Positions 3,001 to 9,000 of a stretch of 64,000 bases of DNA are shown piece by piece. How positions within the stretch are numbered: the stretch's first letter is position 1; every line of letters starts with the position of its first letter. Position numbers: made by a program. Where the stretch lies: positions 92,154,449 through 92,218,448 of the forward strand of contig JASCQW010000132.1 in assembly GCA_030264375.1 (NCBI GenBank). The letters are read 5' to 3'. The DNA comes from Carcharhinus longimanus (Eukaryota).

Positions 3001-6000
3001 AATTTAAAACTGTACTCCCCTGTGTGAAAGAAGCAACTGNNNNNNNNNNNNNNNNNNNNNNNNNNNNNNNNNNNNNNNNNNNNNNNNNNNNNNNNNNNNN
3101 NNNNNNNNNNNNNNNNNNNNNNNNNNNNNNNNNNNNNNNNNNNNNNNNNNNNNNNNNNNNNNNNNNNNNNNNNNNNNNNNNNNNNNNNNNNNNNNNNNNN
3201 NNNNNNNNNNNNNNNNNNNNNNNNNNNNNNNNNNNNNNNNNNNNNNNNNNNNNNNNNNNNNNNNNNNNNNNNNNNNNNNNNNNNNNNNNNNNNNNNNNNN
3301 NNNNNNNNNNNNNNNNNNNNNNNNNNNNNNNNNNNNNNNNNNNNNNNNNNNNNNNNNNNNNNNNNNNNNNNNNNNNNNNNNNNNNNNNNNNNNNNNNNNN
3401 NNNNNNNNNNNNNNNNNNNNNNNNNNNNNNNNNNNNNNNNNNNNNNNNNNNNNNNNNNNNNNNNNNNNNNNNNNNNNNNNNNNNNNNNACGAGGTGGACC
3501 TCCACCTGTGGAATAAAAAGACAAAAACGTTAATCACAAGCCTGCCTTTCCGGTGTCTCCCGAGGAAGGAAGACCCCAGGGTGAAAGAGACAGGACAAAC
3601 CAGAGTGAAAGAGACCAGACACCCCAGGCTGAGGGAAACAAGAAAGAAAATGAAACTGTTCTAGAGGAAAATATTTATATCACAGCTGAGTTGGAAAAAC
3701 TCAATCAGAATTACAGCCAGACACAACAGGCTGAAAAGGTACTCTGAAAGACTATTTGAAAACCAGTAAAGGCCCCTGGAAAAACAGAAGTTTAAACAAA
3801 AAAGATCTTGAATACTTTAGAAAAATGCATTGGAACTGTATGTATGGACAAAGCAGTGTTGTGAAGTGCAGCGTGAGTTGGCAAGCAATCAATAAGAAAA
3901 TAAATAGTTGAAAGAACAGTGACTTGCCATTAAGATCAAGTGCAAAAAGAGTATATAACCCTTCAACAGCAAATGTAGTCTGTCTTAAACTATTAGAGAT
4001 GGATGATTGGTCATGATGTATTTAATTAGCAAAGCATGCTCAAAGGCCAAATGGTCAACTTGTGCTCCTATTTACCATGTTCCTTCCTTCCTTTCTTGTT
4101 AGTAGAATGGATGAAGACAGAACAAAGGCAAAGAGACTCTGACTTAAAACTTAAGGCAAAACTAATGAACTTTGCAAGGCAGAAGAAAACCTATTGAAGG
4201 ACCTTCACAGGCTACAAAGATCCCTCGTGTCAAAGCTTGTTCTGGAAAACTATGAAGTGAAGCAAAACTAATTTAGTGTCACTTAATTGAACTGAAGAAC
4301 CATTGGCAAAGAGGACTCAGCAATGTTCAGTATTCCAGGAGGAAGACCAGAGGTATAATAAAGAGACTGAATGGAACAGAAGCATTGAAAGGAAAAGCCA
4401 TGGAGCTTCCCAAGCTGCAAGCAGTTGAAGAAGCCGTGAGTAGCACAATAATAGAACTGAAAAAGTTAAGACTTTGCCGGAGACAGACTTGGCCAACAAT
4501 GAAACCAAAAAAAGGCAGAAAATGCAAATCCAATGCTGAAGCCCAAGAAGCTAGATGCCTCAAACGTTCAGTTTGTTTAATGCAGAATNNNNNNNNNNNN
4601 NNNNNNNNNNNNNNNNNNNNNNNNNNNNNNNNNNNNNNNNNNNNNNNNNNNNNNNNNNNNNNNNNNNNNNNNNNNNNNNNNNNNNNNNAGACAGAGATGA
4701 GTATTTGAAGCTATCTTCCTCAGAAGGCAGTAGAAGCAGAGTCTTTAAATATTTTCAAGGCAGAGCAAGATGGATTGTTTAGTAACAAGGGGGTGAAAGG
4801 TTATCAGGGGTAGACAGGAGTGTGAAGTTGAGGCTACAATCAAATCATCCATGATCTTATTGAATAACAGAGCAGGCTTGAAGGGTCAAGTGGTTTACTC
4901 CTGCTCATAATTCACACATTCATAATTTTGAGCTCTTTTATAAAATCTCACTTTCATTGCTCTCAGCAGAAGCATCCAAGTTTCCCTAGACTGTCATAAT
5001 CCAAATCCCCCATCCCTGCTCCCACTCTGGTAAATCTCTGATTCTCTGAGAGGCTTTGCCATTCTAAAGTGTGATGCGTAGAATTGGACATAACATGAAG
5101 CTGTTACAGTGGTATTTTTAGTCGAGGGAAGAACGTTGCCAGGGACTAATCCAAAAGAATCTTTAACGACTGTCGGCACACATCTCAGCAGGAAGGCAAA
5201 GTCTCAGTTCAGTGGTTCACCTGAAGTTTGTACCTCTGACAGTGCAGCTGTACCTCAGCACTGCACTGGAATGCCCATATGTATGGGCGCAAGGTTTTGG
5301 AACCCCTGATCTGAGAGTTTTGCCCACTGAGCTAAGCTGAGATTCTGCAACACCAGCTAAGTTCAGTTTGAAGTTTATTTTTGTTTGATTTGACAGCTCT
5401 CTTTTTCAAACACAAATATTTTACAATTTGTTTAATTAAAATGTGAAATATTGTCCCTAAAGTTCTGCACTACTCTCATTCCTGTCCAAGTTTAGCCCAT
5501 GATGTAGGCAAATGGAGTCAGTGGGGAAGATCAGCCTTGATTGTTTTGAATGATGGAGCAATCTCAGAGAGATAAATGGCCTATCTCTGCCTTTTATACT
5601 GTTACTAGGTCACACTTGACAAACCTGTCCCATCTCTTTAGCCAGATTATGAATGATTTGTTTCTGTGCTGTAATGTCCATGTAGTTCCAGCCTGTGACT
5701 TGCTCCCAAGCATCTTTATTTATAGAACATTTATGTTTGTAGTTATTTTCAGCTACAGTTACTATTATTTGCTTTGACCAATAATTTTCTTTCCTGATGC
5801 TAGCTGGCTATAATCCAGTATCTGGATGAGACCAGACCTGGCCCACGGCTGCTCCCTGAGGACAGCAAGAAACGTGCCCAAGTCCGGATGATTTCTGACC
5901 ACATCACCTCTGGTATTCAACCTCTACAGGTATGAGTTTAGTTTCAGGAACCAATTTTTTTGGAGCTCGTGCTGCATTAGAGCTTTCTTTCAACTGAAGG

Positions 6001-9000
6001 TTGGTTGCTCATTCTCATGTCTGGTGAATAACTCATGCTCTCAATTGTCTGCGTATCAAGTACAAATTGTATACTATAACTGGCAGGACCCTTAGGAACA
6101 TTAACATACAGAGAGATCTGGGCATGCAAATCCACACAAATGTGGCAACACAGGTGATTAAGAAGGCATATGGCATGCTCCCGTTCATCAGCTGGGGTAT
6201 TGAGTACAAAAGTTGGGAAATCATGTTGCAGCTATATAAAACCTTGGTTAGGCTGCATTTAGAATACTGCGTGCAGTTCTGGCCACCACACTACCAGAAG
6301 AAGCTTTGGAGAGAGTGCAAAGATGGTTCTCAAGGATATTGCCTGGTCTCGAAGGTGTTGGCTATGAGGAGAGGTTGAATAAACTAGGATTGTTTTCACT
6401 GGAAGCTGAAGGGAGACCTAATAGAGGTCTACAAAATTATGAGACATGGACAGGGTGGAAGTATCAATGACAAAGGGGCACAGGTTCAAAGTAAAAGGAG
6501 GATAGTTTAAGGGAGATGTGCAGGAGGATGTTTTTACGCAGAGAGTGATGGGTGCCTGGAACGTGCTGCCAGAGGAGGTAGTCAGCAATATTTAAGAGGC
6601 ATTTGGATGGGATAGGGATACAGACTGAGTAAGTGCAGGGTTTTTTTTAGTTTAATTAGTTCATCATGATCAGTACAGGCTTGGAGGCCAAAGCCTGTGT
6701 TCTTAACAGCAGATTTCTCTGTAAGGTCATGTGGGTCAGGTTTGTTATTCAGATTGGATAAACTCAGGTGTCTGGTCTGGTCTATTTGGGTCACTCTGGA
6801 TGAGGTTTGTTTGGGGTTTTACCATTGGTATTTGTGCCTGTAGCTTACTCACTTTGTCTAGTTTTCTTTCAGAATTTGCATGTGTTGCAGAAGTTAGAAA
6901 GTGAGAAGAAACTTGAATGGGCTCAATATTTCATCATCAATGGCTTCCAAGGTGAGACCTGGCAGATGACCCCGTCACACCGGTGCTGTGGAACTTTCTA
7001 ATCCATCCAACACTATCGCTACTAACTTCCACCTCCATCCTAACTTGCGTCCTGACCTGTTCACCCATCACCGATGTGCTTGCTGAACTACACTGGCTGT
7101 CTGTCCGGCAATTTTTAAACTCTCGCTCTTATTTCCCTCGGGCTCACGGTTTCCTATTTTCTGTAACCTCCTCCAGCCCTGCACACCTCCAAAAACCCCT
7201 CTACTCCTCCATTTCTGTTTCACATCCTTGATTTCCATCATTCCATTATTGGCCACCATACTTTCAGTTTCCTGAGCTCTGGAATTTCTTCCTTTGGCCT
7301 CTCTACCCTCACTTTCACTAAAATGTTCCTTCAGATCTGACTTCTTACTCAACTCTCCTGGCTATGTCATTAAGACTTGGTATCAAATTCATCATTGCTT
7401 TTGTGGCAATTAACTATTAAGAGTGTTATAAAAATGAGTTGTGTAACTGACTCCATCCTCCTTTGCTAATGTCTGCCTATTTTCCAGCTCTGGAGAGTCT
7501 CCTGCAACAGACAGCTGGACGATACTGTGTCGGTGATGAGGTGCGTACAAGCAAGCTTCTAACCGTGCATCTGTTTAGGATGGCATAGATGATTTTAGGT
7601 TGGTGACAGTCATAACTCTTTGCACAGTTCAGGATGAGAATTGATTGCATTCTCATCGTGAGCTGTTCCCACAACAGGGTGGATGATACCGATGTTTTTC
7701 TCTTTTAATCCACAGGTGTTTCGGTCCGCCTTGTTGTCCAATGAGGGACATGCACGCGATGGGTCGTACGAGGGCTGCTCTTGGTTGTTTCGAGAGAAGC
7801 CTAGTACTTTACGTCGTTAGTGTACGCTTAAACTGGACCAGATGTTGGGCAACACGACAGCTCAGTGACTATCACTGTTTGCTGTGCAGACACATGGATT
7901 TGGGCCAGTGTCTGTGGGAGTTTGCACATTCTCCCCGTGCTTGCGTGGGTTTTCTCTGGGTGCACCCACACCCTCCCACACCCCAAAGATGTGCTATTAG
8001 GCTGATTGATGGTAATAAATTGTCCCTAAATTAGTTTTCCCTCAATGTGGAATGCCGTAAGCATAGATAAGGGTCATGGGTGGCGGGGGGACTGGTAATG
8101 TTAAAATGGCGGCACGGGCTCATTGGGCCGAAGGGCCTGTTTCACGCGCTGTTTTTGTTCTTTGTACCTGGTTTAAATTTCAAACAGTGGTGCTGTTAGT
8201 CACCATCAACTGGTCCATTCTCCATGGCAACACTTCCACCAATCAGAGTTCACTTGCCAACCAATTGGCATTTTCATCTCGTACAGTATAAATTTGTTGT
8301 CTCCCTTGGATTTGGCACTCTTGCAAAATGACCTGCTGAGTGCAAGACTAAAAGCTTTGGCAAAAAGTAAATTTGTTGAGCAGTATTCAAGATCTGTGCT
8401 ACCAAATGTCTATTTGTATACCAACGTATTATTTGTTGCATGTTCATCCCATTCTTAGAAAACAAATATTAATTTATAGGAGAGAGAGATCTATTATTTT
8501 TACCTTGTACCCCAATTTAAAAATTTGGAATAATGATGGTACAAAAGGCATGTGATTTTTGTGAAGGTATGAAAAAAGGAAGTTTGGGAAGGGTGGTAAT
8601 GATGGGGACATGCTTTCAATATTACTCAAGCTTGTAGTCTTGTTGGAGTCTTGCACAGAGCATTAAATTATTTCCAGCTTTGCGCTTGTTACTTGCTCAC
8701 AGTAGGGACTGATTTGGCACAATTGAAGCTTTTTTTTAAACCAGGCGGAGGGAACTATTCATTGCATCATGTCTAGACTGGGTATGAACCTGGGTTGCAG
8801 AAGCAAAAGGACAGGAGTTGATTTTTGTTTTTGCTTTGGAGACTGACTGGCAGAAACTGGATAATAATGCTAGTCCCTGCGAATTGAAACTCAGAGCGTG
8901 AGGGATAAGAGCTCAAGGAGCATTGTGAGAATCTTTAAACCTGTTGAGAAGTTTATTTTGGGAGGAATAAAAATTGGGTTGTGCAAAGGACCTCCCGTGA

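What the first reader, a model, noticed from the sequence alone, without database searches (positions are those of the whole stretch)
5804..7540. Three intact GSTZ1 exons stranded upstream of HIBADH exon 5, apparently inside a HIBADH intron
Seen: three consecutive GSTZ1 exons (126, 79, 53 nt; canonical AG/GT; open frame; introns present) lie on the same strand 26 kb upstream of HIBADH exons 5-6. By eye I found no GSTZ1 exons 1-4 or 8-9 and no HIBADH exons 1-4 in the window. Known: GSTZ1 (tyrosine catabolism) and HIBADH (valine catabolism, next to EVX1/HOXA) are unlinked in human. Inference: a genomic, intron-containing GSTZ1 fragment was duplicated or translocated into the HIBADH intron, or a nested/chimeric locus exists; misassembly is the alternative. 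Intact exons and splice sites imply either recency or selection.
Basis: partly seen in the sequence, partly recalled or inferred. Interest (0 to 1): 0.8.

Follow-up and report, generated by a model that had tools for sequence, protein, structure and literature searches.

The report
GSTZ1 exons beside HIBADH: probable misjoin
Three intact middle exons of a shark tyrosine-breakdown gene really do sit 26 kb in front of two exons of an unrelated valine-breakdown gene, but only assembly gaps connect them, so this is most likely a scaffolding error.

Summary
Exons at 5804-5929, 6873-6951 and 7488-7540 (+ strand, canonical AG/GT) encode residues 74-159 of the ~215-aa shark maleylacetoacetate isomerase (GSTZ1). 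Exons at 33630-33763 and 34337-34413 encode residues 155-225 of the 329-aa HIBADH. No other exon of either gene is in the window.

The interpretation cannot be settled here. The two exon sets never share an ungapped contig: four N-runs lie between them. The GSTZ1 exons sit in a block bounded by 100-N runs at 4589-4688 and 27662-27761, and both block ends are interspersed-repeat copies.

In 10 of 10 shark species where both proteins had a contig listed, GSTZ1 and HIBADH lie on sequences of different length. No database protein combines the two domain sets.

The exons look like an ordinary working GSTZ1: 1 private residue of 85, against 0-5 in 12 sharks. Spliced into HIBADH intron 4 (phase 1), they would be out of frame, with stops.

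Best reading: genuine GSTZ1 exons on a misplaced block (about 0.6). The main rival is a real, recent, unprocessed partial duplicate (about 0.27). Either way it is ordinary. No eukaryote genome collection was available, so neither the same assembly nor related shark genomes could be searched.

The parts
5804..5929 (+). GSTZ1 (maleylacetoacetate isomerase) exon, 126 nt, phase 0/0, encoding residues 74-115 of a 215-aa shark protein
   Evidence: PDB E 3.9e-15; tblastn E 8e-22; 42/42 to Scyliorhinus torazame, 41/42 to Mustelus; splice sites.
5930..6872 (+). Intron, 943 nt, GT..AG. It contains an interspersed-repeat (LINE-tail-like) fragment at about 6028-6640.
   Evidence: The repeat has inverted relatives at 38679-38818 and 39473-39524 (71-77%). 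The ORF 6028-6375 has no Pfam hit. The Atlas gives only widespread eukaryotic 'hypothetical protein' clusters (a lead only). The LINE label is recalled.
6873..6951 (+). GSTZ1 exon, 79 nt, phase 0/1, encoding residues 116-141
   Evidence: E 6e-13 to Mustelus; 24/26 to Mustelus.
6952..7487 (+). Intron, 536 nt, GT..AG
7488..7540 (+). GSTZ1 exon, 53 nt, phase 1/0, encoding residues 142-159
   Evidence: up to E 4e-8; 17/17 to Carcharodon, Cetorhinus and Heptranchias.
4589..4688 (.). 100-N run: left edge of the block that carries the GSTZ1 exons
   Evidence: The sequence right after it (4689-4913) is an interspersed-repeat copy.
27662..27761 (.). 100-N run: right edge of the GSTZ1-bearing block and left edge of the HIBADH-bearing block
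   Evidence: The last 69 nt before it (27593-27661) are an inverted copy, 78% complementary, of 4845-4913.
19486..19692 (.). 207-N run that ends the ungapped contig (4689-19485) holding the GSTZ1 exons
33630..33763 (+). HIBADH exon, 134 nt. The upstream intron is phase 1. It encodes residues about 155-199 of 329.
   Evidence: 100% to the Cetorhinus cluster, E 9e-20; E 8e-25; 44/44 to Mustelus.
34337..34413 (+). HIBADH exon, 77 nt, encoding residues 200-225
   Evidence: E 5e-10; 25/25 to Mustelus.

Best explanation
The three exons are genuine middle exons of this shark's ordinary GSTZ1 gene (maleylacetoacetate isomerase, tyrosine catabolism). They sit on a small, gap-bounded piece of a fragmented draft assembly. 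Scaffolding placed that piece, through repeat-ended joins, into or next to the large intron of the unlinked HIBADH gene.

Nothing biological 'works' here. The fragment covers residues 74-159 only. It lacks the N-terminal part of the GST fold, which includes the catalytic region, and the last ~56 residues, so it cannot make an enzyme on its own.

Shown: the identity and intactness of the exons, the gaps, the repeat-ended block, the lack of linkage in other sharks, and the frame incompatibility with HIBADH. Inferred: that the join itself is wrong.
For: 1. The window holds 11 N-runs in 64 kb. The GSTZ1 exons are in ungapped contig 4689-19485 and the HIBADH exons in 29943-35461, with four N-runs between them. 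No ungapped sequence links the two genes.

2. The GSTZ1 block is bounded by 100-N runs. From established convention, 100 N is the placeholder for a gap of unknown size. Both block ends are copies of one interspersed repeat family: 4845-4913 and 27593-27661, 78% complementary.

3. In 10 of 10 shark species for which both proteins had a contig listed, GSTZ1 and HIBADH lie on sequences of different length. Examples: Mustelus 91.2 vs 168.2 Mb, Cetorhinus 102.3 vs 211.6 Mb, Carcharodon 115.9 vs 233.3 Mb.

4. The exons look like a working orthologue. All six splice sites are canonical. Identity to Mustelus is 81/85. Only 1 of 85 residues is private to the window, at a variable column, against 0-5 private residues in each of 12 shark GSTZ1 proteins.

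5. Both genes are closest to the same species, Mustelus (GSTZ1 81/85, HIBADH 69/69). This suggests one genome rather than contamination.

6. No chimeric gene model appeared. None of 120 listed GSTZ1 hits has HIBADH Pfam domains, and none of 120 listed HIBADH hits has GST domains.
Against: 1. There are 11,945 nt of ungapped sequence after the third exon (7541-19485) with no further GSTZ1 exon, although the two introns seen are only 943 and 536 nt. If the true next intron is short in this species, this contig is not a plain piece of the normal locus. That would favour a truncated duplicate or a chimeric contig.

2. Most scaffold joins in most assemblies are correct. I have no read, linked-read or Hi-C evidence that this one is wrong.

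3. I could not show that these are the genome's only copy of the exons. No database protein of 82 aa or more matched the most variable exon better than Mustelus did, so this species' own GSTZ1 protein is not available for comparison.

4. Repeat-ended contigs are the norm in short-read assemblies, at right and wrong joins alike.
Confidence: 0.6

Rival explanations
1. The fragment is a real, recent, unprocessed partial duplicate. A genomic segment carrying three GSTZ1 exons with their introns was copied or transposed into HIBADH intron 4 in this lineage and is a non-functional gene fragment. It stays intact only because it is young and sharks evolve slowly.
For: Introns are present, so it is not a retrocopy. 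Only 3 exons occur, with 11.9 kb of exon-free ungapped sequence downstream and 1.1 kb upstream in the same contig. That truncated pattern is what a partial duplicate predicts. The scaffold as given places it upstream of HIBADH exons on the same strand.
Against: No ungapped sequence ties it to HIBADH; four N-runs intervene. There is no sign of decay or relaxed constraint: 1 private residue of 85. No terminal repeats or target-site-like repeats bracket the exons. The annotated genes are on different sequences in 10 of 10 other sharks. That leaves room only for a lineage-specific event, or for a fragment that those annotations missed.
Confidence: 0.27
2. A complete GSTZ1 gene truly lies here, relocated or nested. 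Its other exons are hidden in N-runs or lie outside the window.
For: The N-runs are of unknown content, and operator rule forbade filling them. Only 5.8 kb lie upstream of the first exon in the window.
Against: The downstream exons would have to lie before or beyond the HIBADH exons. None is found in 56 kb of downstream sequence, and the N-runs between are 207, 58, 100 and 93 nt. An intron of more than 50 kb beside introns of 943 and 536 nt is unlikely. The genes are unlinked in 10 of 10 sharks.
Confidence: 0.08
3. The three exons are used as cassette exons of HIBADH transcripts, in a chimeric or nested locus. They would give either a fusion protein or a premature-stop 'poison' isoform.
For: The strand is the same, the splice sites are strong, and the total length of 258 nt is a multiple of three.
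Against: HIBADH intron 4 is phase 1. In that frame the first GSTZ1 exon has a stop at its 8th in-exon codon, and all three exons carry stops, so no fusion protein is possible. No database protein combines the two domain sets (0/120 and 0/120). This reading also requires the scaffold join to be real.
Confidence: 0.03

Closest known systems
GSTZ1 / maleylacetoacetate isomerase of sharks (e.g. Mustelus asterias XP_078090660.1, Scyliorhinus torazame XP_072350403.1)
   Same: The three exons encode residues 74-159 at 81/85 identity to Mustelus. The first exon is 42/42 to Scyliorhinus. The PDB relatives are 1fw1 and 2cz2.
   Different: Only about 40% of the protein is encoded in the window. Residues 1-73, which include the N-terminal catalytic region, and residues 160-215 are absent.
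Scaffold misjoin or misplaced small contig in a draft assembly
   Same: The block is gap-bounded and repeat-ended. It carries exons of a gene that lies on another chromosome in related species.
   Different: The misjoin is not demonstrated, because no read-level evidence was available.
Unprocessed (duplicated) pseudogene fragment from segmental duplication
   Same: It is an intron-containing partial copy of a gene at a non-syntenic place.
   Different: A parent copy in the same genome, divergence from it and duplication breakpoints were not observable. No disabling change is present.
Processed pseudogene / retrocopy
   Same: It is a gene fragment away from its usual locus.
   Different: Introns of 943 and 536 nt are retained, so it is not a retrocopy.

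Membership tests
Zeta-class GST (GSTZ1, maleylacetoacetate isomerase) | Sequence similarity to zeta-class members, stronger than to other GST classes | tested here: met
   the best PDB hits are maleylacetoacetate isomerase/GST zeta (E 3.9e-15), while omega and other classes score E >= 0.02; all named hits are maleylacetoacetate isomerase; tblastn E down to 8e-22.
Zeta-class GST (GSTZ1, maleylacetoacetate isomerase) | A complete two-domain GST protein (N-terminal thioredoxin-like domain with the catalytic region, plus a C-terminal helical domain) encoded at the locus | tested here: not met
   Only residues 74-159 of about 215 are encoded in the window. Nothing matches residues 1-73 or 160-215 (other hits E >= 0.2; 47 isoforms, no hit outside the three exons at E <= 0.05).
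Zeta-class GST (GSTZ1, maleylacetoacetate isomerase) | Exons contiguous in the protein, with compatible phases and canonical splice sites | tested here: met
   the exons align to residues 74-115, 116-141 and 143-159, with the split codon between them. AG/GT at all six sites and phases 0/0, 0/1, 1/0.
HIBADH (3-hydroxyisobutyrate dehydrogenase) | Sequence similarity of the two downstream exons to HIBADH | tested here: met
   100% to the Cetorhinus cluster (E 9e-20), and every hit that carries a descriptive name is called 3-hydroxyisobutyrate dehydrogenase (the rest are unnamed or 'hypothetical protein'); 69/69 to Mustelus.
HIBADH (3-hydroxyisobutyrate dehydrogenase) | HIBADH exons on both sides of the GSTZ1 exons (needed for 'inside a HIBADH intron') | tested here: not met
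   no HIBADH match anywhere upstream of 33620 in the window. Residues 1-154 are absent.
Unprocessed partial gene duplicate | Ungapped sequence joining the fragment to its host locus | tested here: not met
   four N-runs lie between 7540 and 33630. The GSTZ1 contig (4689-19485) holds no HIBADH sequence.
Unprocessed partial gene duplicate | A separate parent copy in the same genome, with measurable divergence from it | not testable with these tools
   No eukaryotic genome collection was on hand. One search found no protein of this species.
Processed pseudogene / retrocopy | Absence of introns | tested here: not met
   Introns of 943 and 536 nt with GT..AG.
Transposon-captured gene fragment (Helitron- or Pack-type) | Element termini or terminal repeats closely bracketing the captured exons | tested here: not met
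   no direct or inverted pair brackets 5804-7540. The only pair around it (4845-4913 / 27593-27661) is 22.7 kb apart and 78% complementary, with its right arm ending at the 100-N run at 27662 and its left arm about 160 nt inside the block's left edge.
Scaffold misjoin | The anomalous block is delimited by gaps and ends in repeats | tested here: met
Scaffold misjoin | Reads or an independent assembly contradict the join | not testable with these tools
   No reads and no other assembly of this species were available.

The most novel reading that the evidence does not exclude
The join is real. A young three-exon GSTZ1 cassette with strong splice sites sits in sense orientation inside HIBADH intron 4 of one shark lineage. 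When included in HIBADH transcripts it introduces premature stops, so it would act as a lineage-specific poison-exon cassette or as raw material for exon shuffling. The probability given is for a real insertion. Use of the cassette in transcripts is much less likely, about 0.03.
Probability: 0.27. Interest if true: 0.3.

Novelty: not a real feature. Interest (0 to 1): 0.12.

Why it matters
If it is a misjoin, it matters only as an assembly-quality flag. Gene models and synteny calls for GSTZ1 and HIBADH (a marker beside the HoxA cluster) in this assembly should not be trusted across the 100-N joins.

If it is real, it would be one more lineage-specific unprocessed gene fragment. These are a common class in vertebrate genomes and of modest interest, unless RNA data showed it being spliced into HIBADH transcripts.

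Tried and rejected
1. Looking for this species' own full-length GSTZ1, to see whether a complete transcript carries identical exons. The 26-aa exon alone was too short for the protein search. An unspliced 46-aa genomic reading frame containing it returned only Mustelus. This was uninformative.

2. Six-frame Pfam scan of the contig downstream of the exons. An ORF-based scan was considered but dropped, because a 50-aa cut-off would have missed even the 42-aa GSTZ1 exon.

3. Pfam on 10 long ORFs. It found only a CCHC zinc knuckle at 427-687(-) and no host gene.

4. Rfam and tRNA scans of the whole window, looking for an anchoring non-coding gene. Both found 0 hits.

5. A search for other copies of the repeat at the right block end with up to 3 mismatches. 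It found only itself. Relatives are too diverged for that test and were seen only by the repeat finder.

6. Literature search on GSTZ1 + HIBADH + shark. 33 papers hold at least 2 of the terms and 15 were listed. None concerns this linkage, judged by title and abstract start. I saw only the search listing and read no paper.

7. Processed-pseudogene, transposon-capture and in-frame-fusion readings were rejected.

8. Exons were handled one at a time.

9. N-runs were not filled or looked up.

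Full report
**What is there.**
The window is a gap-rich scaffold with 11 N-runs in 64 kb. On the + strand, 5804-5929, 6873-6951 and 7488-7540 are three exons of 126, 79 and 53 nt. Each follows a pyrimidine tract and AG and is followed by GT. The phases are 0/0, 0/1 and 1/0.

I searched the exons one at a time.
- The first exon's 42 residues match PDB maleylacetoacetate isomerase/GST zeta residues 73-114 at E 3.9e-15. 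Other GST classes score no better than E 0.02.
- The second exon aligns to the immediately following residues of the mouse enzyme, weakly on its own (E 0.91).
- A database search with the first exon returned maleylacetoacetate isomerases, with sharks on top at 93-98% identity.

tblastn of eight cartilaginous-fish GSTZ1 proteins against the window gave E values down to 8e-22, 6e-13 and 4e-8 for the three exons. These cover residues 74-159 of a 215-aa protein.

**What is missing.**
No other part of GSTZ1 is in the window. In one search every other hit had E >= 0.2 and many contained stops. With 47 GSTZ1 isoforms from sharks, a sawfish and a chimaera at E <= 0.05, nothing hit outside the three exons. 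The encoded piece lacks residues 1-73, which include the N-terminal catalytic region of the GST fold (established knowledge of the family). It also lacks residues 160-215, so it cannot make an enzyme alone.

**The HIBADH side.**
33630-33763 (134 nt) and 34337-34413 (77 nt) are HIBADH exons with canonical sites. They encode residues about 155-225 of the 329-aa protein. They are 100% identical to the Cetorhinus cluster in the first exon and 69/69 to Mustelus over both.

No other HIBADH exon occurs in the window. None lies in the 33.6 kb upstream, and none in the 29.6 kb downstream. So 'inside a HIBADH intron' is an inference from absence, not something the window shows. The window would equally allow 'two HIBADH exons stranded behind GSTZ1'. 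The long exon-free stretch after 34413 suits a large gene such as HIBADH better than GSTZ1, whose two visible introns are 943 and 536 nt.

**Which organism.**
Both genes are closest to Mustelus asterias among the sharks compared (GSTZ1 81/85, HIBADH 69/69). The two parts therefore appear to come from one carcharhiniform-like genome rather than from contamination. I did not try to identify the record.

**Are the genes linked in sharks?**
The protein tables list the length of the contig that carries each protein. For all 10 shark species where both were listed, the lengths differ:

| Species | GSTZ1 contig (Mb) | HIBADH contig (Mb) |
|---|---|---|
| Mustelus | 91.2 | 168.2 |
| Cetorhinus | 102.3 | 211.6 |
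| Carcharodon | 115.9 | 233.3 |
| S. torazame | 406.2 | 328.1 |
| S. canicula | 289.5 | 233.9 |
| Stegostoma | 96.4 | 163.1 |
| C. punctatum | 149.4 | 134.7 |
| Rhincodon | 94.4 | 151.0 |
| Hemiscyllium | 120.5 | 142.8 |
| Heterodontus | 131.0 | 227.1 |

So the annotated genes are unlinked in sharks, as in human. This does not exclude an unannotated fragment in a HIBADH intron of some species.

**Is the juxtaposition supported by sequence?**
It is not. The GSTZ1 exons lie in ungapped contig 4689-19485 and the HIBADH exons in 29943-35461. Four N-runs lie between them: 19486-19692, 21643-21700, 27662-27761 and 29850-29942.

The GSTZ1 exons sit in a block bounded by two runs of exactly 100 N (4589-4688 and 27662-27761). 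By convention, 100 N is the placeholder for a gap of unknown size (established knowledge).

Both ends of that block are copies of one interspersed repeat. 4845-4913 and 27593-27661 are 78% complementary, and the latter ends exactly at the gap. Relatives of the same kind of repeat occur in the GSTZ1 intron (6155-6294, 6531-6582) and at 38679-38818 and 39473-39524. Calling it a LINE tail is my recollection. Pfam gave no hit and the Atlas gave only a lead. Joins through dispersed repeats between pieces of 5-23 kb are the kind most prone to misplacement.

**Does the fragment look dead or alive?**
It looks alive.
- All six splice sites are canonical.
- In the two longer exons the GSTZ1 frame is the only open one.
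- Only 1 of 85 residues is private to the window when compared exon by exon with 12 shark GSTZ1 proteins. That residue sits at a column that already varies (A/D/E/G).
- The 12 functional proteins themselves carry 0-5 private residues each over the same stretch.

This is what the working gene's own exons would look like. A very young duplicate in a slowly evolving genome would look the same, so the point is only mildly discriminating.

**Could it be a chimeric or nested locus?**
The HIBADH exon at 33630 begins with the last two bases of a codon, so the intron before it is phase 1. Entered in that phase, the first GSTZ1 exon has a stop at its eighth in-exon codon, and all three exons carry stops. 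Inclusion in HIBADH mRNA would therefore truncate the protein, not fuse the two. None of 120 listed GSTZ1 relatives has HIBADH Pfam domains, and none of 120 listed HIBADH relatives has GST domains.

**Other mechanisms considered.**
- A retrocopy is excluded by the introns.
- Transposon capture has no support. No direct or inverted repeat pair brackets the exons closely.

**What argues against a simple misjoin.**
The 11,945 nt of ungapped sequence after the third exon hold no further GSTZ1 exon, although the two visible introns are short. If the next intron of the real gene is short in this species, this contig cannot be a plain piece of the normal locus. A truncated duplicate, or a contig that is itself chimeric at a repeat (a SINE-like copy lies at 7917-7992), would fit better. 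I could not measure that intron in any shark, because no eukaryotic genome collection was available.

**What could not be checked.**
- An attempt to find this species' own GSTZ1 protein failed. The 26-aa exon was too short for the search, and an unspliced 46-aa frame around it found only Mustelus.
- Rfam and tRNA scans found nothing that could anchor the block.
- A literature search (GSTZ1, HIBADH, shark; 33 papers with at least 2 terms, 15 listed) showed nothing on this linkage. I saw the listing only and read no paper.

**Verdict.**
- About 0.6: genuine GSTZ1 exons on a misplaced, repeat-ended block of a draft scaffold.
- About 0.27: a real, recent, unprocessed partial duplicate in the HIBADH intron.
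- About 0.08: a complete relocated gene with exons hidden in gaps or outside the window.
- About 0.03: a cassette used by HIBADH transcripts.

All of these are ordinary kinds of thing, so interest is low. Deciding needs reads across the five N-runs, an exon-by-exon tBLASTn of the same assembly, and a look at HIBADH intron 4 and the relevant GSTZ1 intron in chromosome-level carcharhiniform genomes.

Noticed in passing
window 427-1393, minus strand: Overlapping gag-like ORFs of 87-145 aa. One carries a CCHC zinc knuckle (Pfam PF00098, E 4.8e-6). This is a retroelement fragment in the first contig of the window.
   Followed up: partly
window 29555-29849 and 30426-30722: Inverted repeat of about 295 nt, 93-97% complementary. 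Its left arm ends exactly at the N-run 29850-29942, in the same block as the HIBADH exons. It is either a long-terminal-inverted-repeat element or an inverted-duplication assembly artefact.
   Followed up: no
window 7917-7992, 36187-36472, 47856-48045, 51138-51343, 54382-54667, 55323-55485, 56814-57026: A SINE-like dispersed repeat family in both orientations, 62-96% alike. A further partial copy at 47021-47079 abuts the 100-N run at 47080, and one copy lies 380 nt downstream of the third GSTZ1 exon. The SINE label is recalled, not tested; ARAGORN found no tRNA.
   Followed up: partly
window 16800-17740: A G-rich, strongly skewed stretch (GC skew 0.38 in 16001-18000) with degenerate repeats spaced 252-312 nt apart. 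Long low-complexity ORFs occur on both strands, and one gave no Pfam hit.
   Followed up: no
window 52995-53149 and 53993-54146: Two direct-repeat segments about 1 kb apart, 72-80% alike, each within open frames of 120-130 aa. This may be a tandemly duplicated unit of a repeat element.
   Followed up: no
window 41494-41660, 50939-51121, 62135-62283: Another dispersed repeat family, 80-86% alike. The copy at 50939-51009 abuts the 10-N run at 51010.
   Followed up: no
protein P0268 (Scyliorhinus torazame GSTZ1 isoform X5, NCBI): This annotated 169-aa isoform runs from the stretch matching the 79-nt exon straight into an unrelated tail. It appears to skip the 53-nt exon and shift frame, so skipping of that exon is annotated in a related shark.
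   Followed up: no
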